Made by a program: the position numbers and the translations under genes
The notes under the pieces: model-generated
The model's input: the letters and a program-made list of their open reading frames with translations, nothing else
Told to the model about the DNA's origin: nothing
The model's database searches: none
Assembly: GCA_003614675.1 (NCBI GenBank)
Contig: ML002211.1
Span: 62,001 to 90,578, forward strand
DNA: 28,578 nucleotides
DNA from: Dimargaris cristalligena
Taxonomy: Eukaryota
Reading direction: 5' to 3'
Shown: piece after piece, positions 3,467 through 28,578 of the stretch
How positions within the stretch are numbered: the first letter of the stretch is position 1
Layout: every line of letters starts with the position of its first letter

Positions 3467-4483
3467 ACCATTCTAGAGGCTGGGTCTATAGCTACATCAC
3501 CAAAAAAACATAGGAAGACATACCACTACTATTGTTGGTGTACAACTGATTAGGGCCCCCTATCCTTCTATACCTACTTAAATAAACCATTCAAAACTAT
3601 AACGAGTGGGAGACAGTATGATCTATAGAAGTCCTTAAAATGCCATGGGTCATTTCCAACTACTAAATACTTGCTGCGTAAAGTTTGTCTGTAGAGTACG
3701 ACTTTAAATATAATTTGCCCCGGGAAGGGTGTCGGACAAACTATTCGGAAATAACCAAATATCTCAACGTTGGTAATAAAATCCTACAATCCTCAAATTA
3801 TAAAATACAGCCTTCACTTAGCCGAGGGTCTATTTGAAAAAAGGGGACTGATCTGTCCTTGGAAAAATCATAGCATCCATATTTACCACACTCCCCCCTA
3901 GGTGATAAGCAACATCTTCCCTACATATACTTACGGACGAGAATCACAGAAAAAAATGGTTTGTATTGAATCACAGCCTAATCGACTTAGGCGAGGTTAA
4001 AGCGGATTAATGACCACAAGGCAATCCACAAGAGTGATCATGACTGGGATAACGGATATAGTACTCAATGCAAAGGAAGGGTGATGGAAATTAGATAATG
4101 ATATAGTATAAATAAGGCAATTCAGCAGGAAATCAGAAACAACACTCCCAATATTGAAATTTAGAAATCAAATTGATCAGGTAGCAAAAAAAAAATACAG
4201 TCGCTTCCTAAACAAATAATAAAAGTTAAGCAGAACTAAACACAACCATGTTATGCAACAACGAAAAAGAAAAATTGGCAGCCCGCTGGTCAATAAGACC
4301 AAGTGGGCGTAATAAACGCAGAGAGGAAAAGGCGATCAACATCGACGAGCAGTGGGAAGGGGAGGATCGGATAAATAATACACAGGGGTGAATGTTTTTT
4401 GGGCCTCACCGGTTTTGAGAAAATTAAAGAAAAGATAGGGATTAGGGTGACCCTAAACCCATTGGGCTAGACAAAGTCAGGGT

Positions 4484-7400: not shown

Positions 7401-7552
7401 GCGAAGATGGGCCAAACTCCGCCGGACTTTTCGCCGTGACCAGTGACCATACGGTCGGGAGCCTGCTGGCGCTCGGGACGGATGAGGGTTTTGCCTCGGC
7501 GGAGAGTGCCACCGCGGGCACCCTGGCCGCCTTCTAGGTTAGGATTGTACAT
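4484..7552 (-). CDS. CHS3: Chitin synthase, division 2 / class IV (Chs3-like), 1022 aa, intronless
   Basis: GT2 chitin synthase motifs VTCYSEG, GNRGKRDSQ, LMVDADT, CLPGCF, GEDRFLT, QRRRWINST and WHFDDFSWGETR. N-terminal RRGKTLIRPER, QQAWREK plus a TM helix, and a cytochrome-b5-like segment (VVDGNVLNLTPY). No myosin motor domain. Confidence 0.93.
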   Translation of the reverse strand: MYNPNLEGGQGARGGTLRRGKTLIRPERQQAPDRMVTGHGEKSGGVWPIFAKVVSFWCPGFILAKLGMGDKSMQQAWREKFALCFIICLICAAVVYLTLFFTTTFCRSTDVQVQDNVLEISPGMTNTVNYLGRAYTITPENYPRDPKPTAGEDLTNLFVRVQPTDCQSFEQKYAAVRLDTCDANNGLGGCPFPTITDAIAQGWIKDEVRLIGWGWDNVSKGSFVVDGNVLNLTPYLNITTNPITDDPVDQAIRIAAEYDHFDATLLFYRTDSLKALIPCLTQKYFAGKLAKSTMGCFAVNLFNYVALVVILGLVLIKFFMALTFSWILSFQLVRRKTGAKPIMASSSTPWAKKNNTTSGAIIQSDAASDELFTLLLVTCYSEGEDSIRTTVESLASTDYSDSRKLLFIIADGMITGSGNDRSTPEICVDLIEVDPLFADPQPCSYIAIADGGKQLNMAKVYAGHYPYKNRRIPTVVVVKCGGPAEQDKPKAGNRGKRDSQIILMNFFSRVIYNDRMTPLDYDLFRKVHHLMGVTPDLFEIVLMVDADTKVYPDSLRLLVNCMNNDPLIMGLCGETKIANKRESWVTWIQVYEYYISHHLGKAFESVFGGVTCLPGCFCMYRLKAPKGESDWVPIITKPEIIQEYSQNVVHTLHEKNLLLLGEDRFLTTLMLRNFPHRKMMFMPQAVCKTVVPDEFKVLLSQRRRWINSTIHNLMELVLVRNLCGTFCFSMQFVVFLDLTGTVVLPVAIAMTFVLLVQLFRTAYDSFASYLPLIMLFAVLFLPGILILITTRKWIYLAWMFVYLLALPVWNFILPVYAYWHFDDFSWGETRKVDGEAKGDDHSKKEGEFDGSKVPLRRWEDYERRRLRSIKRKERRRQDETNSSTVGSENYSTMSANGPLYDDADTAKLLNQAPTTMDYDPSTYNYLNAYDEGSSSHLGGGNHNSNPPSMYPGHPHMQQAHQGGAMDASYFMNQNSGFPSLDPSQQAPYQDAYGGAQGYPAQQPPTYQDPSRQRPMGGRDPNY

Positions 7553-8140
7553 GGTAGGGTTCGCTAAAGGAGCGGTGGGAAAGATATAAAAAAAACCTAA
7601 ACGGATGAAGGGGTTGGGGAAGGGGAAAGGGTGGCTGCAAGCTATAGGAAGCGGCAGAACAAAAATAGAAGCAAGGTCGAAAGGCTGGGAAAGACCAAAA
7701 CAAAGACCAGGCGCCGGTGGATATAAAGAAGAGCAGGCTGGTTATTCAAAAAAGAAGAAGGCAAGAACCAACCGAGCGGACTCTGAAACAGCAATGAGGT
7801 CAAGACAGAGGAGACAGCGTAGCGTAGCGCAAAGAGAAGAGGATAGAAGAAAGAAAAGGGAGGAAAATTAGCGGGAGATAAAGGGGTTAGAGGAAAGAAG
7901 GGCTAACTGGCATTCCAAGACTGAAATACAGCAACCAGGGCAAGTGGTACAGAGTTAACGGAAGGAAGAGGCCGACTCGACAATAGAAATGGCTCACACA
8001 AGGGGAAACCAACCGAGGATAAGAGTGGGAAAGGGGACGAAAAGGAATGTTTGGATTGCGAAATGAAAATGAGTGTGAATGTGGTCGAGTGGGTGTGCGA
8101 AGAGTAAGTGGCCACTGAAGGGGTGGGCGACCGCCTCAGC

Positions 8141-8147
8141 TTATATA
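8141..8147 (-). promoter_or_regulatory. Candidate TATA box of chitin synthase, ahead of a long pyrimidine-rich 5' leader
   Basis: TATATAA on the minus strand, followed by ~550 nt of C/T-rich (minus strand) sequence up to ATG 7552. Confidence 0.4.
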
Positions 8148-11100
8148 TCTCCGCTGGTGCCGGAGGGACCCGGTCGGAGAGCCGGGAACCCCTGCACTCC
8201 CCCCCCTCCCTCCCTTCTTCCTTAGCATTTCATCTGTATCAAACAGCCCAAGGAAAGGGGATGAGAACAAGTGCTATTGTTGCCCATCGAACTATATATC
8301 CAGAACAAAAGGCCGGTTCCCGGCCGTGTACTTGACATTGTATGCGCCGAAGTTGATTGTTAGGTTTTATAGCCCTGTCCACTCCCCCTCCCTCCCTCCT
8401 TCAACTTTACACCATGCCATTCCAGACCAGACCAGCCATCTATCCACTAGGGGGGTGGGGACCAGGGGGGTGGTGGGCGCATACAGCCTGTATGCTAGTG
8501 GGCCCCGCGTCCTATTATCCCCCATCAATCTTACTCGCATACACTCGGACTGTATTGCTCTACATTATTCTATTGGTGGCCCTCTAACCATCCCAGCCGC
8601 TGGCGGCAGTAGGGAAAGGCGAACCGGAACGAGAGTGGCCACATCTTGAGTAAAATAAATAGTATATTCTCCCTTCTTAACTCACCTCAACTCCCCTTCC
8701 TCTTTCTCATCCCAATTATAGCCGCTGTTGCCACCTCAGATGATGGATTAGTTGCACAATACACACCCTCTAAAAGCCATTGTTCATGCATCGTTACTCC
8801 GCTGGATAATTGTTGAGGATCTGTGCGCGGAGTTGGAATCGCGACAACTCCGCTTCCCACTCGATAACTCGGCGACGCGTCCTAGCTAAGTCACTGTCCA
8901 GAATACGGATACTTCCTCCAGTCCCATGCGTCCATGTACTTCCGGAATACCTGACCGCCGGTATTATTGCGGCTGGGCAGGGTGTCCGAAAATGAACCTC
9001 TACAGTCAGCTGCACCCACATGTCGAACATTCCTGCATAGTATGCACCTCCTATTAATGAATCCAGCCTAAAATGGGCCATTCCAAGAAATTCCCCGTGG
9101 CTTCCCTTAGCTGGCTTAGTGATGCTATAATCATCTTATATTTGCCCCGAATTTTAAAAAACTTAGGTTTAGCGTCGATTTTCACACCACTAACCTCCTG
9201 CAGCCATTTTATGCGCTGGTATCCCCCTATGCACTACACCAATTTCGCTGACATATTCCGCGTTTCGCCTAATTACTGGAAATGCACCGCATAAAGACGA
9301 TCTGGCATTGAGGGGGAGATGTCTTTGGCCAGTGGTTTTCTTGAAGTAATGCTATGGGTAAAAGAACCATCACTAACCTTATCCGCGATGGCTAGTGTCC
9401 AATCATCTCGGTAGTCGTGAATCCTGCTGTAGCTACCCCTCTTACTTAATAGATCCCTCAGCTTTATATGATTACATAGGTGTTGTTGACCCCTTCCCTC
9501 ACCTCCACTTAAATGGCATTTGTTTAATAGCTGATCCCCTTCAAACCAACCGCATATTCGGAGTGGAGCCGGCCTATCGGCTACATATACTCGGGGCTGT
9601 CTTATATTCCAAGGTAGGCCCAGAATATTAGGCATATAACCAAGGATATTATAGTACATCAGCAGCATAAAAAAACTGTCCACCAGAAGTGGATAATGAT
9701 GGCAATGGTGGATACTTTTCTTTCCCCATCCAGTCCTCAGCCAATTCTCAATTTTTATTGGCCAATTGGACGAAAGGCGTAGAAGGATTGCTTACCAATA
9801 ACAGAGTGATTGACACCCCGCCATTCCAATAAGACACTGCATCGGTTTTTTTTCTCTAAGCAGGCCATTGGGTAGCCAGTTCGCCCAGCACTCACCAGTT
9901 ACAATGACCGCTTACTTTCTTTCGTATTCATTCCATGGTTGTTCTTAATTTCCATTGACAAAGGTGATGTCCCCTATTAAGCGCGTATCTTGTTACACGT
10001 AGGCCGGGTGGGACTAGCATGTAGAGTATACGGAATAACATATTTTGGTATGTTGGTTTATAAAGACATGGATAACCCTGGGCGACGTGTGCCATTTCTT
10101 CGTTTTGCCCCGCATTGATCCATTTAGTCGACCAAACTAGTAACTACTCAGCACCTGCCCACTTAATGAAATTATATTCCAAGTGCCTAGCTGCTGTAAT
10201 ATTACTAGACATTTCAGTACGGTTCCTACCTGTTGGCGTAGCTCTTGCCATACAATTCCATTAAGCGGGTCATACAACATACACGCTGTTCAGACAACCA
10301 GTTTCTTCCCTCTGGTTTTATCACTAGCATTATATTGAGAAATTGAGCTTACTCATTCCATTGGCCCCATTGTCTAGATTCCAACAAATTCTTCGATCAT
10401 ATATTTCTTTACTATCATGCGCGTACCCTTAATTAGTTTGCCACTTAATAACGTGATGTACCCATTATCCCTTCAAACAATCGGGAACTACTTATACACT
10501 TACATAAGCATCAACGCTTTTCCAAGGCATTATTGTTCTCCAATCGAGCCCTCTGGATCACAACTATCCCGTTAGTCACGCTTATTAAAACGCCGCCGGT
10601 TATTGTGCCATTCGGTATAGCACAATGTTCCTTTGGAACCTTTATTGGTTTGACAATACGAATTATCCTGCACCCTTCATCTCTCACTAGCACCCTCTCT
10701 TGCTGAGTAACACCTTACCACAGTTTATATATACTACTTCGTAACTGCCCATATGCTATCATCAGGGCCAGATAGAGGATGCCTTGCGTGACTTTAATAC
10801 ATACATATATGTATTATTTTTTCTTTTTTTTTCATTGCATTACTGTGGTACCCAAAACATCGCAGGCGCGCTACGGTCACTCAAAGCGCTCCAGAATGCT
10901 TTGGCCCCATTTCCTCTTTGGCCAAGCAGGTCTAATTCAACTTAAGCAGACTTAGAGATGCCCTGGCTTAGCACATGGCCATTTTACCGCTTTGTTGTCG
11001 AATTCATTCCCATGTGCCCATCTACTTGATCAGCCTCAATAGCTATAACACAGCCATTCGTATCCAGTTTTTATTAATCCCTCTCGCTACTGACAAACTT

Positions 11101-12282: not shown

Positions 12283-15070
12283 ATGCACAGCTACAAAATT
12301 ATTACCTTTAAGTTGGCTGTACCGGCCCAGGCTAAGCCTTCCCGAGTGGTCAAGAAGACTCAGTTCAAACGGCGGGCTTGCGACCGGTGCGTCGCTCGTA
12401 AAACAGGGTGTGACGGTGAACTGCCCTGCCTTAAATGCCGCTCAGCTGGTGCCAACAACTGTCACTATAGTAAAATCAGCCGACAACCTCCAAGGCGCCA
12501 CAATAAAACCACAACCACCTCTCCGACTTCGACTAATTCCCCACCTCTGCTACCCGCCAGTCCCCCGGGGCTGCTAACCATATCAACTACCCCTGATACG
12601 TGGCCGATTTCACAAGCCAATCCCCTCGTCCAGCCGCGTCTGCCACCCATTTGTACTCCAAGAGATTCCGCCACTATATACACAGGCCCTACCGGTAGCA
12701 CCGGCGTTGTAATTTCCGACCAGGGCCTCAGAGATGGCCAGACCATTTACCAGTCCAGTGCATATGATTTGCCTTCCATTGCCCAAAGTCTGCCGACCCC
12801 TCCTACCCTGGTCGACTGGTTCCAATTTGACGGCTCGGCCCCGTCCGTCGATGGACTACCATCCAAAGCGGCCCCTTTAGTGCCCATCAGTGAGCGACTT
12901 AAATCCCTTACTCAGTCTCTTCGGGGCCCCGAGGGGCCTAGCGGTAATAGCAACCGCCTCCCCAACCGGAGAGGACCGCCCCCACGCTTAGTCTCAAATA
13001 CTATCACTCAGCATCTATCCTCCCCCCCATTCAGTTGTATATCCACCACGGGCCACCCATCATCGCCGCTGGGCGTATCGGGCAACTCTTCCTTTGCGTC
13101 GTCGATGTCATCACCACATCTGTCATTTACTGTGTCTCACTCCGTAGGGCCCTATACATCCCCTTCGTCGGTCAATTTTTTAGACATGAGCAACTTGGAC
13201 CTCATCACCAAAGAACTATACAACGAGCAGTTTGCCCTCCAAATTGGCCGTCTGAACCAACTCACTCGTCCCCTCAAATCCCAGGAGGACACTCTTTACG
13301 CACCGGGTCTCACGCGAACACTAGTTGCCATATTCGTGCTCAATCATGCACGTAATTTTACCCGTCCTTATCTAGATCGCCTGATTCGAAAACTAGACCG
13401 CCAAGAATTAACCCCTTTGGCCCTCAACTACCTGTTAGGATTTGCTATTGGTGTGCTGCCCCATGGTTCGCTGTCCCCCATTGCTCGCCGTAACATTACC
13501 ACCGCCTACTTGGAGCGAATTTACTACCTGGCCATGGGCCAGTTTGAAGGCGATGCGGCACTTGACACGCCCTACATTTTGTATTTGGCCTCTCGGCTCC
13601 ATGTGTTCAGTAAAACCAGCGATAAATACTCCTTCTTCGTCGGTAGGTACCATTGGCTCGTTGTTTGAACATAGATTTCAACCCAGTGTATTTATCCCCG
13701 TTATTCTATGTAGTTCAGTTTAGGGAAGGCTATTTTAGTATACCTATGTATCCGCTGCCCATCAGCCATGCGAACTATTCGCAAGTAGATTAAATTGTCT
13801 AATGGTGTTTGACCCCCCCTCCGCCATACCTATTGTATATACTCCAATCACCTGCTAAACTTTTGAATTCGATTTTAAGCGCTTGGTATTAGGTAAGGTC
13901 AGCCCCCCCACCTCCCTCCCTTCTTCCATGGGTTAAGCCTTATTATTAATTTTTTGCGCATCTATGAGCAATTTCAATACTGCCTCAATTTTGGTGGCGT
14001 TTCCCTGTCCATATGGTAGCTCCAACCATCCACCTGTTACTTATAGAACGCGCCGTTTTCATTGCACTTGTTATATTAGAATGATAACCCAGATGCGTTA
14101 CCACATCGTCGATCTACCCACCCAAATTACTTATGGCCCTGAGACACTTGTGGCTGTTCTGCGTAAAGAATACAAACGTCGTATATTCTGGGAGATCACC
14201 GCCTTGGATAGCCTAATCTGTTGCTTTTTGGGAATCCCGGGAAATTTTCGGGAAGAAAATATTTGCGTTGATCCCATTGATGACCGACTTCTTGGTCATT
14301 TATTGCAGCTAGCTCCGGATGACGACGTCTTTCCAGCCATTATTCCGGCCCTTGGGACTACGGTTTGCGGTAACCCGGTACTTATCCGACTTACCCATCT
14401 AGTATACAAGGCCAGTAATTTGCGAGCCAAAATCCTACCCCCCAATAGTGTCTCGGATTTCCGGCCCTACTACGAACTTAATGCCCATCTTCAGACTGTC
14501 CACCGGGAGTTGTTACAAATGTTCCCATTACCCCGATCTAACAAAATACCCAGCCATTTGACGGCTGCTCAGATGCTGCAATTCACCGGACTCGGTATGA
14601 TCCATTCCGCCTTTACCTCGGTAGTTCTTTTACTGAATACGCACAACTGGTCGTTTGGGGCCAGGGCCATCCGCCCCGAGACCGACCCTTTTCTGCATCA
14701 AATGGGTCTACGCGCGGCCCTCCAATTTACAGATTATTGTCTACCATTCTTGAGGCATCTACCGCCGCAGCGCCACCATTTGTGTGCCAGTAACTGTTGT
14801 TTCCTGGCGGCCTATCGACTTGCTATTTATTTAGGGCAGCTTAAAGAAACTATGGCTGTTGCTCCCGAGACTCCCCTAATATTTAACCAAACGCTAGATA
14901 CGATCCGGACATATATTACATATTTGGACGAATACCGGGCCTATGTCACTTACGTGGATTCCTACCAAGCCTTGCTGCAGCAGCAGCTCTATGATGTGGG
15001 GGTTGATGTAAATGTGGCCCGAATCGAGAGTACCCGCCACACCGGTAACCAGGTAGTTGAACCAGTTTAA
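12283..15070 (+). CDS. Zn(II)2Cys6 transcription factor with fungal-specific TF (middle homology-like) region, paralog 1; exons 12283-13642, 13880-13892, 14080-15070 (787 aa)
   Basis: RRACDRCVARKTGCDGELPCLKCRSAGANNC (C-x2-C-x6-C-x5-C-x2-C-x7-C) and downstream YH-x-VD...EYKRRIFW...D motifs. Donors GTAGGT (13643) and GTAAGG (13893); acceptors AAG (13879) and TAG (14079). Exon lengths sum to 2364 nt, in frame. Confidence 0.88.
13880..13892 (+). other. 13-nt coding micro-exon of TF paralog 1 (CGCTTGGTATTAG, gives A-L-G-I-R)
   Basis: Flanked by a branch-like GCTAAAC and ttttAAG upstream and GTAAGG downstream. It reconciles the phase-1 donor with the phase-2 acceptor and is homologous to the micro-exon in paralog 2. 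Confidence 0.85.
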
Positions 15071-16866
15071 GATGGGATGCCACTCGCTGTTTGTTATATT
15101 ACTTATAAACTAATACTGTCATGGGAATTTATTCAAGGCCCTATTGTGATGTGGCCCGAGCTTCCATAATGCCATCAGATCACACGGACCATCACCGGGA
15201 GATCGGAACCGGGCCATCAATTTCGGACCTGGCTTTATCAAATTTCAACTAGTTTTATCAACGTTCTGACATGTACCGGTGGCTTCACCTGCAATCCTTG
15301 CTACGAAATAAGACCCTGTTTTAGTTATCTAAAGGTTTGCTGACCTTCTTTTTGTCATCTCACGGACATCCCAACTCGTGGGACCTTGTTTTCTGACTCT
15401 GACGGAGTGCTGACCCTACCGTTGCACATCAGCCCCACGAGCCTTTGGGTAAGCATCTTTATTGTATAATCGTCCTATTTAATTCAGTGGCTAGTAGAGT
15501 TGCCACTGATAAGGACGATCTCCCTTCCAACAATGATTACTTGTTAGGACAACAACCGGCCGAGAAGGCCTTATCAGAGGGCTAATTCCATATTGCCCAA
15601 ACCCAGCAATGAACATACACTGTTTGCCACAAAATGATACAATAGGTATGTGTTTTCCATGTGTAGGCTGTGCAGTATAATCCCCTCCTGTTTTGGATGC
15701 AAGGGGGGGTTAGCCTTCATAATGCAAATGGTCGACTTTGACTTTTAATATACACGCGCGTTTTGAATTTGCTAAGTTGGAGGAGGGGCCATGGACGCTA
15801 GCCCCTATTGTCGGCCCAATTGTAATATTTACTGGCGATTATTCCCCCTTATATTGATGGAGTAGAAAGGTCGAACTGGGCTAAAGCATCTAACAAGAAT
15901 TGGGATTGAAGACCAAGCTGGCCCCCCAAGTAACCAGCTGTATCGACACTTATAGTGCATGGTGTACCTCATTGTCACATGGATGGGCTTACGTGTTCAT
16001 TTCCTAGCTGACTAGAAGTGCGAAGGTACGAATATGCCAATTGGATCTGTGAAGGTTTCGGCCATTTTCACCTTTTCTTGAAGGATCTATTAGTCGTGTG
16101 ATTGGCGGAGGCAGCTAGAAAACAATACCCAGTTCCCTACCGATAATTCTTCAAAATATACACTACTCTATTACGAGTGTCATTCATCAACTACCCATTC
16201 GGATGGACTATGGGTTGGGAAGTGAAAAAATCATAATATGGGTCTGGGATATTTTTTGCCCTAAGATTGACCTGTAACCCTAATGTAACGACGGCTGGAG
16301 GTGTCTTAAAAAGGCAAGTAATACACAAACATACTACAACCTCTCTCTCCATGTAGCTGGGCGGGGTGTTTATCCTCAAAACCCATCGTACCTTGGCTTC
16401 TCATTCACTTGCACACCTACCGTGTGGCGCCCCTTCCAGTTGATAGTGAAGGGCAAAATAATACTTGGAAGGGTTTATATCGGCTTCCGATTTTGTATTT
16501 AAACGCACGCCTCCACGCCCCCACCCTTGGGGGAGTTGACCTCTTCGGCAGCGGGACTTCAACTTGATTTTGTCCGCCGGTTCATCGGTACTCCGTAATC
16601 TCCCACGGCGCTTGGTCCCTATAATATTCTCTCCCGAAAACGCATGTCCCTTTGTGTTCTTTCTGTAAGCAGTACCCACATTCTTGGATAATTTCCTAAT
16701 ACCTAGTTGGCTGGCCCCCTATTACATACTTACATGCCACGCCCGCCCTCAACCGTGGTTTTTTTTTCTTCCCCGAATTCCCCTTGCCAGCATACTATTT
16801 TGAAGGCGCACTGTTCTACCACTCTCCTGAACCTCCTCTGCCATACATGCCATTACTCACCCGTCC

Positions 16867-19821
16867 ATGGGCGAATATGAAATTCTGAGCTTTAAACTGG
16901 ACGTGGCGCCGGGCGGTAATGCCTACCACCAGCCTCCAACCTACCGGCGCCGGGCCTGCGACCGCTGTGTGGCCCGTAAAATCGGCTGCGACGGGAAACT
17001 GCCCTGCTCCCGTTGCCAGCGGGCTAACCACCAGACCCAGTGCCACTATAGTACTATTAGTCGTCAGCCCCCTAAGCGGCGGTCGAAGCCGAGTCAGACT
17101 CGGGGTCCACAGCATCCACCGCCCCTCCTCCATGGTCCGGAATTGGCATTACCCACCCTCCCGGATTCAGGCAGGCCTGGGTCACCACCACTACTACCAC
17201 CACAGCTGCCGCCCGGGTGTTGGCCTAGGACCCCCCTCCCCGCGCCAGTCAGTGGCACAGTGGGCTCTTCATTCGCCTTAGTGGCTGTTGCTTTGCCTGC
17301 CGCCCCCCTTTCGCCCCAGACCACTAGCTCTGGGCCAGCTAGCAGTGTACCAAGCGTGTCTCAGTCCCTCCTATCTAACCTTTCCAGCTCACCCCCTTCA
17401 CCTTCCCCAGCTCAGCTTAACTCTCGGCCCCCTTTGCCTTCATTTATTGAGGTTATTCAGCAATGTAAACCAGCCACCACTATTATTACCTCACGTCCTC
17501 CTACTGGGACAAGAGCACTAGGTTCGGTTTCCACTGACCCTTCAGCTCACCGGCCAACAACAACTGGAACTACTGTCGCATTATTTAATGTACCTCCGAC
17601 TCCACCACACCTCCCATGCCCACCCGCCGCGTCCACTCAGCAGCTCTCGCTCGACGTTCGATTACGCCACTTAATCCAGTCCTTGGATCTAACGGGACCA
17701 ACTACTATGCCGCAGGATCACAGCGATTCGATATGCCTCAATGGTATTTACTCCAATCATCATCATCATCATAGGGCGGAAGGTGGTGGTGGTGATGATG
17801 ATGATGTTGGCCAGGACCCAAAAATTCCCGCCTGGGACGATAACAACAGTCTTGGTTGGTTTAGCTATAACCCGTATGATATGACCATTGACATCCCGGC
17901 CTTCTTCGCCGGCCCGCATGGATCCCAGTTTCTGCAACGCTTCTACCAATTGGGCGGACTACTTACCCAGCGAACCCTCCAGTCCCGTGAGGAAGCCATC
18001 TACCACCCCCGGTTGGTGCACTCGCTGGTGGCCATCTACGTTGGTCAGCAGGTGCGCGTTTTCCAGCGTTTATATCTCGAACGGATTTACCGCAAAATCC
18101 GGCGGGGTGAGGTATCTGCCGCCGTCTTGAACTACCTCTTGGCCTACGGGTCGGCCGTGGTCCAATCCACCCCTAGTGCCCGGCGTGCAATATCCGCGAT
18201 ATATTTTGAGCAACTCCGTAGTACTATTCCCGGGGAAATGGCTAGACCGACTTTAGAGACCCCCTACCTGATTTACCTTATTGGTTCACTGCACGCCACA
18301 ATTAATGAAAGCGAGGGCTTTGGTTACTATATAGGTAAGTTCAAGAGCCTCCTCCTCCTCCCTTTTCTTCCCCTACCTCATTCACTGATTATCTATAATA
18401 GGTTCTATTCGCCCGCCTTAGGCGCAGGTGTGGCTTGATTACCACTTAAGGCCGGACTTCAATTTTAGCGATTGGCTCAGCAAGGGTCCAATGTCCAGCC
18501 CCGACCTGTTTCCTTCTGATTCTTAAATGATACTTATTCGCTTCCTCGTAATTACTTTCTTAAAAACCCTAAAATACCATTGGCCATCTGTGTATTGACT
18601 TATTCGACAATTAGCATTGGGCAAAAGGTATAGTCGCTATACTATTCAATCATTGCCCGGAATCCCTCCCTACCTTACTTTGTCCTTGGGAAACTTATGG
18701 CCCAATTATCTACGGCTAAACTATTCCCCCTCTCTGACATATCCTCCTAACCATTTTGTATATTTGCAAAAATTTATTTCTTCACATGCACGAATAGACT
18801 CATGCTAGAAGCAAACTACCATCTAGTCGACCTCCCGAACACCGAGACAGGCGCGGCGATAGTCCACTCCTCTGTATCATTCGACCTATATGTCGAGTTG
18901 ACTAAAGAGTACAAGCGCCGGTCCATCTGGGAGCTCGCCACCTTTGATAATCTCATTTTCTGTATGCTTGGCTCCCGCAGTTTTTTCACCGCCACCCGTA
19001 TGAAGGCCCGCCCTATCAATGACCGGCTAATACACCAGCTGTTCCAGCTGAACCCGGACCAAGACAACTTCCCGATCCTTATACCAGGTATTAGGCATAC
19101 CCTTTGCGGGTACCCCACTCTGATCGACTTGGCCCTGATTGTGGGTAAAGTGGCCGACCTGCGGGCCAGTGTCGCCGAAGCGGTGGAGGCTACTGGTGAA
19201 CCCGACCTGACCCTGTATTACCAACTTAATAATGAATTGGACCAGCTCCAGGTGCGACTCTTAGCCGAGTACCCCCTACCGGAGGACGAGCCCAGCGGTG
19301 AGTTAGTCGAACGAAACGCGGCTTACTTTAGCAGTCTGTATACCCTGCACTCGACATTCTTCTCCACCCAGATGATCCTTAATGTTTATAATTGGAATAT
19401 TTCGGCCCCAGCCAGACCCGCCAGTCAAAGCGAAACCAGGCAAACCGTAATAACCCCCTTCCGCCCCGAACAACACCCCGCATTCCGCTACCGGGGCCTC
19501 CAGGCGGCGCGATTTTTCGACCGGCAATTATACCCCATTATTCGCAAACTGCCCTTCCAGTTCCATACCAATGTGTTTAGCGGGGCGGCCTTTCTCAGTG
19601 CACTTACCTTTGCGCTCATTTTGCCCTCCGACCCCACGGTCAATATGAGGCACGTGAACCAGTGCGTTCGAGATTATCTCGACTACCTAGCGGAACTAAC
19701 GAAGTATATTTCGTACGTACAGTCCTATATTGTTCTACTCGGTCACTTGCTGACCACCCTTAATTTGCCGCCGGTGAATGACACGACCCTTCAAGTATAC
19801 CCACGGAGCCACTTCAGCTAA
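16867..19821 (+). CDS. Zn(II)2Cys6 transcription factor with fungal-specific TF region, paralog 2; exons 16867-18334, 18615-18627, 18798-19821 (834 aa)
   Basis: RRACDRCVARKIGCDGKLPCSRCQRANHQTQC, YHLVDLP and KEYKRRSIWELATFD. Donors GTAAGT (18335) and GTATAG (18628); acceptors TAG (18614) and TAG (18797). Exons sum to 2505 nt, in frame, and are collinear with paralog 1. Confidence 0.88.
17758..17806 (+). repeat. Compound coding microsatellite (CAT)5...(GGT)4(GAT)4 encoding HHHHH-RAE-GGGG-DDDD
   Basis: Read directly from the sequence inside exon 1 of TF paralog 2. Confidence 0.85.
18615..18627 (+). other. 13-nt coding micro-exon of TF paralog 2 (CATTGGGCAAAAG, gives A-L-G-K-R)
   Basis: Preceded by a branch-like TTGAC and aatTAG, followed by GTATAG. 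It restores the frame and has the same length and peptide pattern as in paralog 1. Confidence 0.85.
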
Positions 19822-21697
19822 TGATTCGGGCGGTTTGGACCAGTAGAAGGCGCGGCTGTATAGACGGATGACTATGAGTTACGACAGCCATCTTGAGATT
19901 GTTATCATAAATATGCCATAGAACGGACATCATATGGGAAAGATTCAACCAGGCTGTATAACATAAAATCCGTTGGATGAGGCAAATATTATTGGTTAAT
20001 AATGAATCTCCCGCACATTTCCCCATATGCCTACCATTTAAACGCCTATACAGTTGGGCCGAACTTCACCCATATCGTGTATTTAATTTATTTTCCTTTA
20101 GTTCCCCAAAACCAGTATGCGGTCTTTACACTATTTTAGCTATTACACAAAACGAACGGAGCAGATATGATCATGCTTAATTTCGCTTAATTTCCTAATT
20201 CAATATTGTTCAATTAAGGGTATGTAACCGATTAGTTCCAGAAAGGTGGCCTACAGAGAGTTAGGCTGATATCGCCTTTGTATAAAGGTGTGAATCGAGG
20301 GTATTGGTGGGGTTTTTTTAAATTATTATAATATGTACTGTATGGAGGGTTCACCATTGGCCTGTGATTGGGACTCCCGAATGTCCCTTAGTGCCCTCCT
20401 ATACCATTTCATTTGATGTGTGCTATTCGTTGCTTTCATTTTTGCCCTGTGATTCACTGGTATGGTACAGCAAATATACCATGTATTGCCAATTCCGTTG
20501 GGTTTGAGGTATTTGCACTCCCCTCGGGCCATGTTCCATGTATCCACCCATTCTGACCCATTGTGGTGCTTGCCTAGCCGTTTGAGCTGTTATGCGAAAT
20601 GCCTCCAAGGAATTCCGGAGGTAATGAAGGGGGAGGGGTTAATTTGGAGTGTTACACAGTGTACCTTGGTATACGTAGGCCAAGTATCTGGTCACGTTGA
20701 TCGATTACTTTTAAAATAGTCGCTCAGGCAGATTATTCTTCCATTCTCCCTTCTCCTGTCTTCCCGTTAACCCACTATATCGACAATGTACACTATTGTG
20801 ATTATGGTTAATATCGGTTATAGTGGACGGAACGAGCATGTTGGCCGCGGTGAGAGGCCGTGTTTCGCAGGTTCGTAGCTAGGACCTCGCCTACTATATT
20901 ATAGCAATTTAGATAATATACCTTCATCATTGGTGTTTGCTTAGTTGTACGAGCAATGATGGGTTGCGACATCTTACTTCCCTTCCCCCCTCCCCTTGCC
21001 GACCTTAACGGAATATTGATCTCTCTCTTTCTCTCTCTCTCCGTTTTCTCATCTGGTACACATAAACAGTCAGTGCTTAAAGGGCTAGGGTATACAATGG
21101 GACGGGGTGGGTGATTTTTTTGGAAGGGGTAAAGCCTCATGAGCATTCCGCTCAGAGTCCACAGTGTCAGTTTCATCAGTGCGAGGTATCTCTCCCACAT
21201 CCCCATTGTTATTTAAGGCTGTTTTTTTTTTATTACGGAAAGTCACTCAAGGCAACACAAGTAACAGTGGTGGACCTTAAATGTACTACCCATTTGGCAG
21301 CTCACCATGGGAAAATGAGGAGGGGGGAGAAGGGGAAGGATGGGGTAGGTGTTCTCTACAGTCTATTTACGCTTAATACCGTTTATGTTGGCTGGGGTAT
21401 TATGGTATTTGTCTGACAGTATACTGGGCATCCTCCATAGAAACTGACTATAAAAAACTCCCTGGCCGCCCAAAAATGGCTCTATTTCCCAATCATCTTT
21501 ATCAATCGACCGTTTTTATATGTATCTTCTGTATTTATCTCTATTAATATTTACATTCTGGACAGTAGTTTATTCTTTATCACGTTACCCTTTTTTTGAA
21601 TGACCTTTTTAATTGGCTATTAGCAATATTACCATTTGAGGTTCAATAAGTGTTCCCTTTTCACACTCACATTCACATACGCCCCCGAGCCTTCATA

Positions 21698-23096
21698 ATG
21701 ATGTCATATAGTGCTTGGTGGTTGTTTGCACTGGCTGCTTCGGCGGTTTCGGCCAACGGTAAGGGTTTATATAGTTTTAATATATTGTTAGACTATTTAA
21801 TAATAAAATATCCGGTATTTAGTCCCAAGATGGAGGGGGGGGTATAGGGACTACTAGTGTGGCCAAGGCCACCTGTCAATCCCACGGCTGTAACGCCGAT
21901 GCTAGGACCCCTAACAAACTCTAACCTACCTTTTCCAGTGGGATTATGGCCATATTTATCTTTGGTGCGTGACATTAGACTGCAGTCAGGATTACGATAT
22001 CATCTCCCAGGACGGGATTAACGACATTTCCCAGTGTGCCAGGATGTCGGGGAATATCCGGGTCGCTTCGACAAACCTCACAACTCTACACCTTCCTAAC
22101 CTTACGGTCTTACGCGGCGACCTATTCATCAAGGACAACGATTACCTCAAGTCCGTTGAACTTCCCCGCCTTCTGCGTTTGAATGGGGCGTTGGCGCTAT
22201 TCAAAAACGGTGTTCTGGAAACTCTGGATACACCGGCCCTAACCTACCTCCGGTCCCTCGAGGCCGTTGACAACCCGCAGTTGAAAAACGTGGGTTTCCC
22301 CGCTGAACTCCGGGACATTGACCTGCTCCGTTTGGTGGGTAGTCGGGTGATTAAGCTGGGCGGTATTAAGCCCCAGGGCGTAGGGAGCATTGAGATTGTG
22401 GATAACCCGGAAATGGATACAATCTCCTTTAACCACCTCGTCAAGGTGCACAGCTCTCTGCGAATTGCCAACAACCACGAAACATGCAGCTTACATTTGC
22501 CCAGCCTGACTAACATCGGCCGGGGCCTGGAGCTGGCCCACCTGCGGATTGTCAAGGCGCCCCGGCTCGAATCGGTCGGAGGGGGGGTGCACGTCCACGA
22601 CAACTGGTTCGAGGAGATTGAGCTCGACGACCTGACCGAAGTAGAAGAATCGGTGCGGCTCCACAACAACTCCCAACTGCGGGTCTTCTCCTTACGGGCT
22701 TTGGAGCGGGTCGGGGGCAGTTTGGTGGTGTACAACAACACCCAGCTGGAAAGTATCGCCGACCTGGATGAACTGGAGACGGTGAACGGGGACATCAATA
22801 TTCGGGGTTCGTTCCGGACGCTGTCCATGCTCCAGTTGGAACAGACGGCCGGCCGCATCATTATCAAGAGCACGGAGCGCCTTGACTGCAAGGATATCAA
22901 GAAAAACCTGGCGATCAAACCGGCCAGTGACAAATGGGTGTGTCAGGAGGAGGTGGACCGGAATGAAGTGATTGCGTTGGCGGAGTCGGACCAAAGTGGG
23001 GGTAAAAATGGAGCCGTTCAGCCGACGCCGGGTTGGTCCATGGGTATTGCGCTGGGAGTCACGGGTCTGATGTCTATAGTCCAGTTCCTGTTTTAA
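21698..23096 (+). CDS. Ecm33/Pst1/Sps2-like GPI-anchored cell-surface protein with receptor L-domain repeats; exons 21698-21758 and 21979-23096 (392 aa)
   Basis: Exon 1 encodes the signal peptide MMSYSAWWLFALAASAVSAN. Intron GTAAGG(21759)...TAG(21978) gives an in-frame join G+AC = Asp. Repeated LPxLxxVxGxLxIxxNxxL units, N-terminal C-x17-C and C-terminal Cys pair, then a KNGA omega-site region and hydrophobic C-terminal tail. Confidence 0.88.
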
Positions 23097-24653: not shown

Positions 24654-26562
24654 ATGCCCTCTTTCATCGGTGCCATTGACCAGGGGACTACCTCCTCCCG
24701 CTTCCTCATTTTCGACAAGTCCGGTGTAGTCATCGCCTCCCACCAGCTTGAATTCCCCCAGTACTTTCCTAATGTCGGGTAAGTGGTACTATTGCTCTCG
24801 CTTATTATTAGATATCAGGGTCAGTTGCTCTCTGGTCACACTAGTCACTAAGAAGTGCTTCACTAGACTGGCCAGGAAAGGATTTTCACACTACTCAGAC
24901 TAACTGTGTTACCTTCCTTGCGCCGACCTGGTCACACGGCTAGTAGCCACAGCGGCTATTGACATGTGTGTAAAAGAAGGGTGTTCAAAATCTATTGATC
25001 TCTTTTCGTAGTCGGAAAAAGTAGTGCTGGGCCACATGTCACGTGGCTACCGAAATCGATCTTCTTGGATAACCTATGCAAGTGTATGGAGCGGCCTTAA
25101 CTAACATCTAGTTTGTTATGACTATATTGTTGCCATCGATCATTTCGCGTCATGTATATATAGCTGGGTGGAACAAAACCCCAATGAAATCCTTCAGTCC
25201 GTTACACATGCCGTCGAGAAGACTGTAGCCAAATTCGAGGCCAAGGGCCACAGCGTGGCCGATATCAAGGCCATCGGGATCACTAACCAACGTGAAACCG
25301 CCGTGGCCTGGGACCGTAAGACGGGCCAGCCGCTCTGCAATGCCATCGTGTGGAACGACACCCGTACCAAGGATGTCGTTCACGCCTTGGCCGACTCCCA
25401 TCCCTCCAAGGATGTCAACTGTATCCGTGATATCTGTGGTCTGCCCCTGACGACTTACTTCACCGGTGTCAAGCTCCGCTGGATGTTGGAGAACGTACCC
25501 GCGGTAAAGGAGGCCCAAGACGAAGGTCGCCTGATGGTCGGTACCGTCGACTCGTGGCTCATTTATAACCTGACCGGTGGGGCCACTAATGGTGGTATCC
25601 ACGTCACTGACGTGACTAACGCCAGCCGTACTATGTTGATGAACATCCGCGATCTCAAGTGGAGTGACGAACTCTGCTCGTTCTTCCAAGTATCCCGCGA
25701 GGCCTTGCCCAAGATTGCGTCTTCCTCGGAAGTCTACGGTCATGTGGCCGACGGGCCCCTCAAAGGCGTCCCTATCGCCGGCTGTCTCGGTGACCAACAG
25801 GCCGCTACCGTGGGCCAGAAGTGCTTCAGCCCCGGTGAAGCCAAGAACACCTACGGTACCGGTTGCTTTATGATCTTCAACACCGGCCATGAACTGACCT
25901 TTTCCGACAATGGCCTTCTCTCCACCGTGGCTTACCAACTGGGCCCCGATACCAAGCCCGTCTACGCCCTGGAGGGCTCCATCGCCGTGGCCGGTTCCGC
26001 CATCAAGTGGCTGCGCGATAACATGGGTTTAATTCAGGAAGCCGCCGATATCGGCCGCTATGCCTCCGAGGTCAGCAACACCGGTGGCGTGTATTTCGTC
26101 ACCGCCTTCTCGGGTTTGTTCGCCCCCTACTGGCGTGACGACGCTCGTGGCTGTTTGATTGGCCTCACCCAATACGCCAACCGTAACCACATTTGCCGGG
26201 CCACGCTGGAGGCCATTTGCTTCCAGACCCGCGCTATTTTGGATGCCATGAACGCCGACAGCAAGCAGTCCCTGAGTGTCCTCAAGGTCGACGGCGGTGT
26301 GACCAATTCCGATGTGTGCATGCAGCTCCAGGCCGACATTCTGGGCATCGAAGTCGTGCGCCCGGCTAATATCGAAACTACTGCGCTGGGCGCCGCCTTC
26401 GCCGCCGGTTTGGCCGTTAAGGAGTGGGACAGCATCGATGATATTATCGGTAGCCAGGGCGATGAGAATGTGGTCTTCAAGCCCTCGGTGGATGCCAATG
26501 ACCGGGATGGCCGCTACGCGAAGTGGAATGAAGCCATTAAGCGCAGTTACGGCTGGGCCTAA
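24654..26562 (+). CDS. GUT1: Glycerol kinase (FGGY family); exons 24654-24778 and 25164-26562 (507 aa)
   Basis: Exon 1 (absent from the ORF track) encodes [21 protein letters not shown]. Intron GTAAGT(24779)...TAG(25163) joins GG+C to give G-W-V-E. Motifs [54 protein letters not shown] and LKVDGG. Confidence 0.96.
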
Positions 26563-27305
26563 AATGTAACCCTCCCCCCTCTCTTCACCACTCTGACGAA
26601 GGGAGAGGGTTCCACCGAACTCTCTTCTCTTCCCAACATGTCTTTGTAATAGCAACTACTTGAAGTTCTGCTTTTTTCTTTTGTTTTGCCACTGGCTTTG
26701 GACTTTTTTTAAACAAATAGTCGTAGATATACTGCGTAATTCGGTTTGTTTCAATATGTCTTGAACGCCTTTATTTACTCGCATTCGAGTAGCTAGCCAT
26801 CTTATATCATATTGTATAAATAATTTATGGTTGAAATCCCATATATATCGCTACACATGAAATTGGCCCTACTACTAAAAGTACAGTTTGGTCTATTAAT
26901 GCAACAATTTGCAGAGTCACTCGAAAGACATACGATAAATATCCATATAGGTGGACCATTATATTAAGGCCACGTGACCTTAGGGGGACAAACATAACCT
27001 TCCCCCCCCCTTATATTATCCACCCATCTATTGCCACCAATATAAGCCAAGGAGACTTAGCCTATATTGTGATGGGGTGGGGGTATGTTCAGAAAGGGCA
27101 GGGGCAGTGCTGATACTCAATTGAGTACCAGCCTAGTAGGTGGGGCTATATTTATGCTTATAATTGTGCTAACCCCATAATACAATTATAAGCCCTGTCC
27201 TTTTAAGCTCTGCCCTGTTTATTTTAACTAACTCTTTAGCTAGCTGTTATAAATAAAAAGAAAGGGCACTAAAAGGTGCCACTAAAAGGTAAAAAGGATG
27301 TCAGA

Positions 27306-27631
27306 CCTTCTAATCTACCCTAATCCAGATGCCTTAGTGTCCATCCCTATAAGGCCTTATAGTACTATATTAACCTCCCCATAGTCACCCCTGGTACTAT
27401 GGGATCATCAATATTATGTAACCTCTCCCCTTCCAGACTCTGCCTCTTTGCACTAATTACTTAAGTACTAATATGAAGACTCTTCCAGTTACCATCAGAG
27501 TCTTCCTGACCCTAATGGCCATCCAGTTGGCCTATTTCCCCTATACCTTAGTCTTAGTAGTATCCTTCCCCTGGGGCCTCCCTCTGGAGTTGTCCCCATA
27601 TATATATAACTAGGCCCCTTTTAGGACTAGT
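27306..27631 (+). repeat. Left arm of ~330-bp imperfect inverted repeat
   Basis: Reverse complement of 28081-28391. The core 27356-27407 matches 28289-28340 with 2 mismatches in 52 nt, both transitions. Confidence 0.9.
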
Positions 27632-28080
27632 ATCATGGAGTGGTGGTATTAAGCCACAAAAATGAATAACAAAATATTATCAAAAGGGCAGGGTGGCTTC
27701 TCCAGGTAAACTGATTAGTCCCTCTAATAAAAATTCAATATAAAATACTTTATAATAAAAAAACCAGTTTAAACTAAGTAATAGTAATACCAGTTTGGAA
27801 GCTCAAAAGGACCATTTCCTTAGTGTCACCTGGGTTTACCACTCTTAGCCTATCAAGAGTCCTGGGGGCAGGCTTCTAATGGTAGGCAGGGCTTAGACTC
27901 AGCCAAGTGGGTCCTAGTGTTAGGTGGGGGGGCATAGTACTAACTAATAAAGACTATAAATGCAGAGTCAGGTAAGGGATATGCAATGGGAACACTTACT
28001 AGTCAGTATATGAGGGGGTGAGTATATATAGAGTTTATTGGGGTAAACTAGGGGGGGTAAGAAATAAGCTAAGGAATTGA

Positions 28081-28391
28081 ACCAGTCCCAATAGGGCCTA
28101 GTTATATATATGTGGGGGACAACTCCCAAGGAAGATACTACTAAGACTAAGGTATGATAGATAGACTGACCAGACATCCATGAGGATCTGGAAGACTTGG
28201 GTAGTAACTAGAAGAGTCTTTGGATCAGTACTGGGGTGATTGGTGCAAACTAAGGAGTCTGGAAGGGGAATATTTGTGTTGTATAGGGTGATCCCATAGT
28301 ACCAGGGGTGACCATGGGAAGGTTAATATAGTACTATAAGTCTGAATAGGGACAGACAATTACTATGTCCAGATTAAGTCAGATTAAAAGG
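28081..28391 (-). repeat. Right arm of ~330-bp imperfect inverted repeat
   Basis: Aligns by eye along its whole length to 27306-27631, e.g. atacCTTAGTCTTAGTAGTATC, GGAGTTGTCCCC and TATATATAACTAGGCCC; spacer ~450 bp. Confidence 0.9.
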
Positions 28392-28578
28392 ACCAACACT
28401 TGGCAACTGTAGTGAACTTACCATATTTTTACCTACTTTTATTTTTTATCTATTTTTTACTCTTATTAGAAGTATGCCCCTAACAAGTGAATGAGCCCCT
28501 GCCCCTTGTAAAGAACTGAAATTAAATCCTTGAAAACTGAACTTTATTTGAAAAGATAGATAATAAAAGGGAAAGGTG

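What the first reader, a model, noticed from the sequence alone, without database searches (positions are those of the whole stretch)
26975..28578. Sharply bounded 1.6-kb CpG-free zone with reciprocal CpA/TpG substitutions: repeat-targeted hypermutation (5mC- or RIP-like)
Seen: CpG is common elsewhere in the window, but none was found after 26974. Aligning the two repeat arms shows CA in one opposite TG in the other, the footprint of an ancestral CG mutated on opposite strands: taatcCAgaTG vs taatcTGgaCA, gtcCAtccc vs gtcTGtccc, CAtcCAgtTG (27520-27529) vs TGtcTGgtCA, and TGaagac vs CAaagac. Several TA vs CA/TG sites also occur (cacTAat/cacCAat, tacTAat/tacTGat, caTAgt/caTGgt, gacTAgt/gacTGgt), consistent with a second CpA>TpA hit. 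Known: RIP is demonstrated in filamentous Ascomycota (CpA), and CpG-biased RIP-like patterns occur in some Basidiomycota. Inference: if this is an early-diverging fungus, it points to a poorly described genome-defence process acting right next to a housekeeping gene.
Basis: partly seen in the sequence, partly recalled or inferred. Interest (0 to 1): 0.72.

Follow-up and report, generated by a model that had tools for sequence, protein, structure and literature searches.

The report
CpG-erased repeat island in Dimargaritales fungus
The last 1.6 kb of this fungal DNA piece is a patch of high-copy, non-coding repeats that has lost every CG step to C-to-T change while the neighbouring gene and spacer kept theirs, the footprint expected of DNA-methylated repeats and seen here in a little-studied fungal lineage.

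Summary
The last CpG is at 26973. After it come 1605 bp with 0 CpG, against 65.6 expected from composition, or about 45 at the window's intergenic rate. The next-longest CpG-free gap in the window is 179 bp.

The two inverted arms (about 27250-27636 and 28070-28431) carry 8 reciprocal CA/TG sites. Simulation gave a mean of 0.58 and a maximum of 5 in 20,000 runs.

The window comes from a Dimargaritales fungus (Kickxellomycotina), most likely Dimargaris cristalligena. Contigs of four public runs show that the zone is high-copy repeat DNA. Its edge (about 26941) lies within 40 bp of the CpG-free edge, and the single-copy flank keeps a CpG o/e of 0.79.

Outside former CpGs the arms look neutral: 30 transitions to 20 transversions, GC no lower than the flank, and no demonstrable CpA>TpA excess (p=0.37).

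Best reading (about 0.65): slow deamination of 5-methylcytosine in CpG-methylated repeats. Related Kickxellales carry DNMT1 and UHRF1 and have repeat-confined 5mC. A RIP-like mutator is not needed, but it is not excluded (about 0.15).

I could not test DNMTs or 5mC in this organism. The scan had already noted the same footprint on at least eight other pieces of this genome. This is a known kind of process in a new lineage, of moderate to low interest.

The parts
25168..26562 (+). Glycerol-kinase-type gene (FGGY_N + FGGY_C). This is the 'housekeeping' neighbour, and its CpG content is normal.
   Evidence: Pfam E 6e-56 and 3e-48. CpG o/e is 0.97-1.08 in 500-bp windows across it.
26563..26940 (.). 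Single-copy spacer between the gene and the repeats. CpG is retained.
   Evidence: 26563-26973 has 11 CpG against 14.0 expected, o/e 0.79. In each of 4 runs one contig covers it at flat single-copy depth (tables 2 and 8).
26941..27212 (.). First repeat piece, marking the edge of the repeat island. It still holds the last CpG (26973, inside CACGTG).
   Evidence: Contig pieces from other copies start at 26941 (X4 records 26 and 27, about 90% alike). The single-copy contigs of all 4 runs end at 27063-27068. Summed depth rises from bin 26911-26983 onward.
26974..28578 (.). CpG-free zone: 0 CpG in 1605 bp, open at the window end. It is non-coding and made of several repeat pieces of different abundance.
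   Evidence: for the CpG counts. No stop-to-stop ORF exceeds 92 aa. Pfam gave no match at E below 0.1 for the 6 ORFs scanned, and Rfam gave none at E up to 1. About 2900-3600 contig pieces per run lie on the laid stretch, nearly all on the zone.
27250..27636 (+). Arm A: a partial copy of an abundant repeat family.
   Evidence: Alignment to arm B. Contig pieces from other copies cover 27378-27629 (table 8). At 27618, loose ends from other copies continue as arm B does (table 7).
28070..28431 (-). Arm B: a copy of the same family in inverted orientation. The family unit appears to run on leftward to about 27900.
   Evidence: Pieces from other copies cover 27898-28117 and 28204-28398 (table 8).
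28444..28578 (.). The most abundant repeat piece, at the window end.
   Evidence: Summed contig depth is 370,000-960,000 in X1 against 1084 for the single-copy flank, and similar in the other 3 runs (table 2). The tool warns that this is not a copy number.

Best explanation
The zone is the start of an island of old, high-copy, non-coding repeats in a Dimargaritales fungus, most likely Dimargaris cristalligena.

Most likely mechanism: the repeats, but not the adjacent single-copy DNA, are (or long were) methylated at CpG by a DNMT1-type maintenance system. Spontaneous deamination of 5-methylcytosine then turned every CpG into TpG or CpA, independently in each copy and on either strand, until none was left.

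Shown: complete CpG-specific loss, its C>T/G>A nature, its occurrence after the two arms separated, its confinement to repeated DNA, and the sharp edge.

Inferred: that 5mC is the cause, that the host has the enzymes, and that the process is slow decay and not an active mutator.
For: 1. Specificity. There are 0 of about 45-66 expected CpGs, while C in other contexts is plentiful (CC o/e 1.91, CT 1.35).

2. Direction and timing. The arms carry 8 CA/TG reciprocal sites (chance mean 0.58, maximum 5 of 20,000). This implies about 16 CpGs in the arms' common ancestor, close to the 15.0 expected from composition. All were lost in both arms, on both strands, and interleaved within 4 bp (27524 CA, 27528 TG).

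3. Repeat targeting.
- The zone has no copy elsewhere in the window.
- About 2900-3600 contig pieces per run lie on the laid stretch in 4 runs from 2 studies.
- The single-copy contigs stop at 27063-27068, and pieces from other copies start at 26941.
- CpGs at 26922 and 26933 sit just outside that edge.
- At 27086/7 and 28343 other copies read C where the window has T before G. That would be a CpG if the G is unchanged in those copies.

4. No general hypermutation. Non-CpG transitions to transversions are 30:20, and zone GC is 0.405 against 0.375 in the flank.

5. The required rate is plausible. CpG loss of at least about 24 times the non-CpG transition rate (95% bound) is of the order recalled for methylated CpGs in mammals.

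6. Lineage context.
- Supplementary file 1 of Funabiki et al. (eLife 2023, PMC10538959) lists DNMT1, UHRF1 and a class II zf-4CXXC_R1 protein for the Kickxellales Coemansia reversa and Linderina pennispora, and 5mC 'Y' for Linderina (rows read).
- Lax et al. 2024 (PMC11258239, passage read) state that 5mC in Phycomyces lies almost only in repeats, 'similar to Linderina pennispora'.
- Amselem et al. 2015 (PMC4352252, passages read) link CpG-only signatures in fungal transposons to Masc2/DNMT1-type enzymes and 5mC deamination.
Against: - No DNMT gene and no 5mC measurement could be checked for this organism. No genome is held, and no methylation-reporting run was listed.
- Pure CpG>TpG/CpA decay should enrich CA and TG. 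Instead they are at o/e 0.80 and 0.92, and TA is at 1.31, against 1.01/1.04/1.03 in other non-ORF DNA. This needs either an AT- and TA-rich ancestral repeat or further CpA>TpA change.
- If every C/T mismatch is taken as C>T, CpA sites are lost more often than CpC or CpT sites (0.44 against 0.19 and 0.12; p=0.006).
- Total loss (0 left) is more extreme than I recall for methylated repeats in most organisms.
- Reviews describe early-diverging fungi as having near-undetectable 5mC (PMC13297926, passage read).
Confidence: 0.65

Rival explanations
1. An active, homology- or repeat-triggered cytosine mutator hits duplicated DNA in bursts. It would be RIP-like, run by a RID/Masc1-like methyltransferase or a deaminase, prefer CpG and hit CpA second.
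For: - Erasure is complete and sharply bounded at the repeat edge.
- TpA is in excess (o/e 1.31) and CpA/TpG in deficit (0.80/0.92). TpA/ApT is 1.39 and (CpA+TpG)/(ApC+GpT) is 0.96 in the zone.
- There are 11 TA-versus-CA/TG sites between the arms. CpA loss is 0.44 against 0.12-0.19 for CpT/CpC if all mismatches are taken as C>T (p=0.006).
- CpG-biased 'RIP-like' patterns are described in Pucciniomycotina (Horns et al. 2012, PMC3318451, abstract read).
Against: - Non-CpG transitions to transversions are only 30:20.
- GC is not lowered relative to the flank.
- C-runs are intact (CC o/e 1.91).
- The CpA signal vanishes when the 52 conserved TpA sites are counted (p=0.37). Eleven mismatches are about what neutral T<>C change at so many TpA sites would give (inference).
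- CA and TG products alternate within 4 bp, so there is no single-strand processive tract.
- The arms are old (6.4% transversions), leaving time for slow decay.
- The classical RIP indices are also 'positive' in the unmutated flank (1.03 and 1.02), so they do not discriminate here.
- Badet & Croll list this species as no_rip (supplement row read). Their screen targets canonical RIP k-mers, however.
Confidence: 0.15
2. Much of the CpG-free state was inherited. The repeat family went on multiplying from master copies that were already CpG-poor, so only a small part of the CpG loss happened at this locus.
For: - Loose-end consensus sequences from other copies are themselves CpG-poor. By my own reading of the 24 consensuses shown out of 1544 loose-end rows, there are 3 CpGs in roughly 600 nt (table 7).
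- Many contig pieces are at least 99% alike to the CpG-free window sequence (318-463 per run), though many of these may be this locus's own short unitigs.
Against: - The arms' common ancestor had about 16 CpGs against 15.0 expected, a normal content, and both arms lost all of them afterwards.
- At 27086 and 28343 other copies read C before G where the window has T.
- This reading shifts the timing only. It still needs the same CpG-specific process.
Confidence: 0.1
3. The zone is an artefact or foreign DNA: a chimeric assembly joining the fungal gene to DNA of another, CpG-poor organism, or a sequencing artefact.
For: - The published assembly of this species comes from single-cell amplification, which is prone to chimeras. 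The species appears in Ahrendt et al. 2018, PMC6784888, seen only in the search listing. That the assembly was made that way is recalled.
- The zone lies at the window end.
Against: - Contigs of 3.7-7.0 kb from 4 runs in 2 studies all cross from the gene flank into the zone, up to 27063-27068 (table 8).
- One 202-nt contig matches 28098-28297 exactly at single-copy depth (X1 record 6).
- The same runs, all labelled with the same organism, hold thousands of related repeat pieces.
- Earlier notes describe the same footprint on other pieces of this genome (unchecked AI notes).
Confidence: 0.03

Closest known systems
CpG-signature decay of transposons in fungi with Masc2/DNMT1-type CpG methylation (Microbotryum, Puccinia, Melampsora, Tuber; Amselem et al. 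2015, PMC4352252)
   Same: C>T changes are concentrated at CpG in repeated DNA, with genes spared. The signature is attributed to deamination of 5mC (passages read).
   Different: Here the loss is total (0 CpG in 1.6 kb), whereas that paper reports a CpG bias in 10-40% of copies. The host is a Zoopagomycota fungus, not a Dikarya species. Neither the enzyme nor 5mC has been shown for it.
Repeat-confined 5mC in Linderina pennispora (Kickxellales) and Phycomyces (Mondo et al. 2017 as cited by Lax et al. 2024, PMC11258239)
   Same: Linderina belongs to the same subphylum. 5mC is reported almost only in repeat-rich regions (passage read). DNMT1 and UHRF1 are listed for Linderina and Coemansia.
   Different: Those are methylation maps, not mutation footprints. 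Mondo et al. itself was not read. Dimargaritales were not covered.
Canonical RIP of Neurospora crassa and other Pezizomycotina (RID-dependent)
   Same: C>T changes are confined to duplicated DNA, and TpA is enriched.
   Different: Here the target is CpG. CpA preference, a large transition excess and AT enrichment are absent or unproven. Premeiotic timing and a RID gene cannot be tested.
TpCpG 'RIP-like' hypermutation of Pucciniomycotina (Horns et al. 2012, PMC3318451)
   Same: CpG-centred C>T change in repeats of a fungus outside the Pezizomycotina (abstract read).
   Different: No TpCpG preference can be seen here. All CpGs are gone, and the base 5' of the inferred sites is mixed T, C and A (read from the alignment).

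Membership tests
5mC-driven CpG decay of methylated repeats (DNMT1/Masc2-type) | Loss is specific to CpG and yields TpG/CpA | tested here: met
   0 of 65.6 expected CpGs. 8 CA/TG reciprocal sites between the arms, against a chance mean of 0.58.
5mC-driven CpG decay of methylated repeats (DNMT1/Masc2-type) | Confined to repeated DNA, with single-copy DNA and genes spared | tested here: met
   Repeat edge at about 26941 and last CpG at 26973. Flank o/e 0.79 and ORFs 0.90.
5mC-driven CpG decay of methylated repeats (DNMT1/Masc2-type) | Net gain of TpG and CpA | tested here: not met
   CA o/e is 0.80 and TG 0.92 in the zone, against 1.01 and 1.04 in other non-ORF DNA. The ancestral composition is unknown.
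5mC-driven CpG decay of methylated repeats (DNMT1/Masc2-type) | Host encodes a CpG methyltransferase (DNMT1/DNMT5/Dim-2 class) | not testable with these tools
   No genome is held. Only relatives are covered: DNMT1 and UHRF1 are listed for Coemansia and Linderina.
5mC-driven CpG decay of methylated repeats (DNMT1/Masc2-type) | 5mC is present on the repeats | not testable with these tools
   Only contig-level DNA runs were listed.
Canonical RIP (RID-dependent, Pezizomycotina) | C>T preferentially at CpA (or CpT) | tested here: inconclusive
   Loss fraction 0.44 for CpA against 0.19 and 0.12 for CpC and CpT (p=0.006) if all mismatches are C>T. p=0.37 when conserved TpA sites are counted. No outgroup is available for polarity.
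Canonical RIP (RID-dependent, Pezizomycotina) | Large excess of transitions and AT enrichment of the mutated DNA | tested here: not met
   Non-CpG transitions to transversions are 30:20. GC is 0.405 in the zone against 0.375 in the flank.
Canonical RIP (RID-dependent, Pezizomycotina) | RIP indices: TpA/ApT high and (CpA+TpG)/(ApC+GpT) low (thresholds 0.89 and 1.03, recalled) | tested here: inconclusive
   The zone gives 1.39 and 0.96. The unmutated flank also passes both (1.03 and 1.02), so the indices do not discriminate here.
Canonical RIP (RID-dependent, Pezizomycotina) | RID/Masc1 homologue present; premeiotic action | not testable with these tools
   No genome is held.
TpCpG RIP-like hypermutation (Pucciniomycotina) | Preference for T 5' of the mutated CpG | tested here: inconclusive
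   All CpGs are lost. The 5' base of the inferred sites is mixed (alignment).

The most novel reading that the evidence does not exclude
Dimargaritales, and perhaps other Zoopagomycota, may have an active repeat-triggered cytosine mutator that wipes out CpG completely and then erodes CpA to TpA. That would be a RIP-like genome defence arising outside Dikarya, with a different target rule and so far no known enzyme. The total erasure, the razor-sharp repeat edge, and the TpA excess with CpA/TpG deficit in the zone are compatible with it.
Probability: 0.12. Interest if true: 0.7.

Novelty: new member of a known kind. Interest (0 to 1): 0.33.

Why it matters
If the reading is right, repeat-confined CpG methylation has been strong and long-lasting enough in a mycoparasitic Zoopagomycota lineage to strip its abundant unclassified repeats of every CpG, while leaving a gene 400 bp away untouched. 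Early-diverging fungi are usually summarised as 6mA-rich and nearly free of 5mC (review PMC13297926).

None of the full-text searches on this topic listed a paper that reports such a footprint in Zoopagomycota. Listings, and passages of six of the papers found by those searches, were read.

The footprint is also a practical marker. CpG-free blocks delimit repeat islands in this fragmented draft assembly. The sharp edges would allow a direct test of how far methylation spreads in these fungi.

Tried and rejected
- **Whole-genome analysis.** No genome is held for this window. Genome-wide CpG maps, a family consensus and a DNMT search were therefore not possible.
- **DNMT search through the protein databases.** I had no permitted query. 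DNMT sequences appear only in a paper's supplement, which is neither a window nor a stored sequence, so I did not use them.
- **Other copies in the window.** blastn of the zone against the rest of the window found none.
- **Other windows of the scan.** A look-up by sequence found no look-alike windows.
- **Metagenome scan.** An exact scan with a 21-nt motif from the conserved arm core found 0 loci. I did not use the second scan that was allowed.
- **Coding or RNA identity of the repeats.**
  - No stop-to-stop ORF exceeds 92 aa.
  - Pfam on 6 of the 27 ORFs gave only two chance-level matches (E 0.1 and 0.22).
  - Rfam gave nothing at gathering score for the window or at E up to 1 for the zone.
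  - No tRNA was found.
- **Expression.** No RNA holder was listed.
- **Polarity of the CpA/TpA mismatches from other copies.** Read laying showed only 40 of 397 variant rows and no contig sequences, so no rooted spectrum could be built.
- **Bewick et al. 2019** (the fungal DNMT survey) is not held under its DOI or its PMC id.
- **Badet & Croll supplements** hold no per-species DNMT table that I could find.
- **Rejected readings:** a chimeric contig (four runs cross the junction), and a synthetic or vector-type CpG-free sequence (the arms are 79% alike with a natural substitution pattern).
Full report
**1. What is there**

The window is fungal nuclear DNA. It carries:
- a tRNA pseudouridine synthase (3-1592)
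- a class IV-type chitin synthase (4484-7552, minus strand)
- two Zn2Cys6 factors
- a receptor-L-domain protein
- a glycerol-kinase-type FGGY gene (25168-26562)

The best named relatives of the chitin synthase are Tieghemiomyces parasiticus (80% identity), Dispira simplex (74%) and Dimargaris xerosporica (71%). All three are Dimargaritales, Kickxellomycotina. The only 100% hit is the window's own blinded record, on a contig of 90,578 bp. Earlier notes of this scan name the genome Dimargaris cristalligena (unchecked). That fits the published assembly statistics: 30.65 Mb, 48.05% GC, largest scaffold 110,356 bp (supplement row of Badet & Croll 2025, PMC12543289). I take the order as shown and the species as a likely inference.

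**2. The observation**

The window has 1352 CpGs, the last at 26973. From 26974 to the window end (1605 bp, GC 0.405) there are none.
- Expected from composition: 65.6.
- Expected at the window's own non-ORF CpG o/e of 0.69: 45.4, giving P(0) of about 2e-20.
- Next-longest CpG-free gap in the window: 179 bp.

The 411-bp spacer between the kinase stop codon and the zone has 11 CpGs against 14.0 expected (o/e 0.79). Twenty low-GC 500-bp non-ORF windows range from 0.40 to 0.98.

**3. The repeat arms**

The zone holds an inverted repeat: about 27250-27636 against 28070-28431.
- Over 314 aligned columns the arms are 79% identical, with 46 transitions and 20 transversions.
- Eight sites have CA in one arm opposite TG in the other (7-8 under three scoring schemes).
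- Placing 46 transitions at random gave a mean of 0.58 such sites and never more than 5 in 20,000 trials.
- Of 10 adjacent double transitions, 8 are of this one type.

If an ancestral CpG is lost at random as TG or CA in each arm, half of the lost sites become visible as CA/TG. Eight visible sites therefore imply about 16 ancestral CpGs. Composition predicts 15.0 for the arm. The common ancestor of the arms thus had a normal CpG content, and all of it was lost afterwards in both arms.

The products alternate over short distances (27520 CA, 27524 CA, 27528 TG). The hits fell on both strands of the same copy, which does not fit one strand-specific tract.

**4. The zone is repeated DNA, and the edges coincide**

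Within the window the zone has no other copy. In contigs of four public DNA runs from two studies, all labelled with the same organism, the picture is as follows.
- The flank 26400-26910 is covered by exactly one contig per run at flat depth.
- Those contigs all end at 27063-27068.
- Pieces from other copies begin at 26941.
- In all, 2926-3631 contig pieces per run at 80% likeness or better lie on the laid stretch.
- Summed depth rises from 5-fold to several hundred-fold over the single-copy value. The tool warns that this is not a copy number.
- Changes among copies are mostly transitions: in X1, 229 transitions against 67 transversions.

The repeat edge (about 26941) and the CpG-free edge (26974) are within 40 bp of each other. 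CpGs at 26922 and 26933 sit just outside the repeat. One CpG (26973, in CACGTG) survives inside the first repeat piece.

The four runs crossing the junction also rule out a chimeric join.

At 27086/27087 the window has TG. Other copies read C at 27086 and A at 27087, and in X2 more contigs carry the C than carry the A. At 28343 most other copies read C before G. Both would be CpGs if the neighbouring G is unchanged in those copies, which the truncated table cannot show.

**5. What the repeats are**

They are non-coding and unclassified.
- No stop-to-stop ORF exceeds 92 aa.
- Pfam and Rfam gave no match.
- No tRNA was found.

This agrees with Badet & Croll's annotation, in which 2.11 of the 2.19 Mb of repeats in this species are 'Unknown'.

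The uneven depth and the loose ends indicate a mosaic of fragments. Arm A is a partial copy, and the family unit runs on through arm B toward about 27900 (tables 7 and 8).

**6. Decay or hypermutation?**

Outside the former CpGs the arms look neutral.
- There are 30 transitions to 20 transversions.
- The zone is not more AT-rich than its flank (0.405 against 0.375).
- C-runs are abundant (CC o/e 1.91, GG 1.75).

- If every one is taken as C>T, CpA is lost more often than CpC or CpT (0.44 against 0.19 and 0.12, p=0.006).
- The arms also share 52 conserved TpA sites. Counted against all conserved sites, the excess disappears (p=0.37).
- With about 0.05 transitions per site per arm, neutral T>C or A>G change at that many TpA sites would by itself give roughly ten such mismatches (inference).
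- Without an outgroup the polarity is open.

One point counts against pure CpG decay. CA and TG are not enriched (o/e 0.80 and 0.92), while TA is (1.31). Other non-ORF DNA has 1.01, 1.04 and 1.03. Either the ancestral repeat was TA-rich, or CpA/TpG went on to TpA.

The classical RIP indices are 'positive' in the zone (1.39 and 0.96) but also in the unmutated flank (1.03 and 1.02), so they do not help here. The thresholds of 0.89 and 1.03 are recalled.

From 0 survivors in 32 arm-sites, CpG loss ran at least about 24 times faster than non-CpG transitions (95% bound). That is high, but of the order I recall for methylated CpGs in mammals. The arms are old (6.4% transversions).

**7. Lineage context**

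No paper found by six full-text searches on this topic reports CpG erosion or RIP-like mutation in Zoopagomycota. What was found:
- A 2026 review does not mention the phylum and describes early-diverging fungi as nearly 5mC-free (PMC13297926, passages read).
- Funabiki et al. 2023 (PMC10538959, supplementary file 1, header and two rows read) list DNMT1, DNMT2, UHRF1 and a class II zf-4CXXC_R1 protein for Coemansia reversa and Linderina pennispora, with no DNMT3 or DNMT5. They mark 5mC as present in Linderina.
- Lax et al. 2024 (PMC11258239, passage read) say that 5mC in Phycomyces lies almost only in repeats, 'similar to Linderina pennispora'.
- Amselem et al. 2015 (PMC4352252, passages read) tie CpG-only signatures in fungal transposons to Masc2/DNMT1-type enzymes and 5mC deamination.
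- Horns et al. 2012 (PMC3318451, abstract read) describe TpCpG hypermutation in Pucciniomycotina.
- Badet & Croll 2025 (abstract and supplement rows read) find RIP-like signatures only in ascomycetes and list Dimargaris cristalligena as no_rip.

Bewick et al. 2019, the main survey of fungal DNMTs, could not be read. Its tables may bear on whether Dimargaritales have DNMT1.

**8. Verdict**

The most economical mechanism is long-term deamination of 5mC in CpG-methylated repeats maintained by a DNMT1/UHRF1-type system (confidence 0.65). It is inferred from the footprint and from relatives, and is not shown for this organism. An active RIP-like mutator with CpG first and CpA second remains possible (0.15). 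Inheritance from already CpG-poor masters may add to the effect (0.10). An artefact is unlikely (0.03).

The scan had already recorded the same footprint on at least eight other pieces of this genome. Most follow-ups reached the same reading. One of them reported erosion spilling a few hundred bases into single-copy DNA, which is not seen at this edge.

This is a new lineage for a known kind of process. It is tidy and unusually complete, but not a new system on present evidence.

Noticed in passing
window 26974-28578: Besides CpG, the zone has an odd dinucleotide profile: CC 1.91, GG 1.75, CT 1.35 and AG 1.18 are high, while GC 0.69 (down to 0.33 in 28001-28500), GA 0.74 and TC 0.77 are low. 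I cannot say whether this is the repeats' own composition or a second mutational bias.
   Followed up: partly
window 26968-26979: The last surviving CpG sits in the palindrome CACGTG, about 30 bp inside the first repeat piece. It may be chance, or a protected binding site.
   Followed up: no
window 2251-3000, 8001-8750, 15251-16000, 21001-21750: Patches of lowered CpG o/e (0.37-0.57) lie in non-ORF DNA, with CpG-free gaps of at most 179 bp. They may be old, more eroded repeat relics or simply AT-rich spacers. Their copy number was not checked.
   Followed up: no
window 4484-7552 (-): The chitin synthase ORF is 1022 aa without interruption. The database record for the window's own protein is 861 aa (84% of the ORF), while relatives are 1050-1058 aa. 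The deposited gene model may be truncated at one end.
   Followed up: no
window 13964-15070 (+) and 18802-19821 (+): Two long ORFs (368 and 339 aa) have no Pfam family at E up to 0.001.
   Followed up: no
window 27086-27087 and 28343-28344: At these sites the window has TG, while other copies in the sequencing runs read C at the first base and, at 27087, A at the second. These may be three-state CG/TG/CA sites that would give the polarity of the mutations if the contig sequences could be read.
   Followed up: partly
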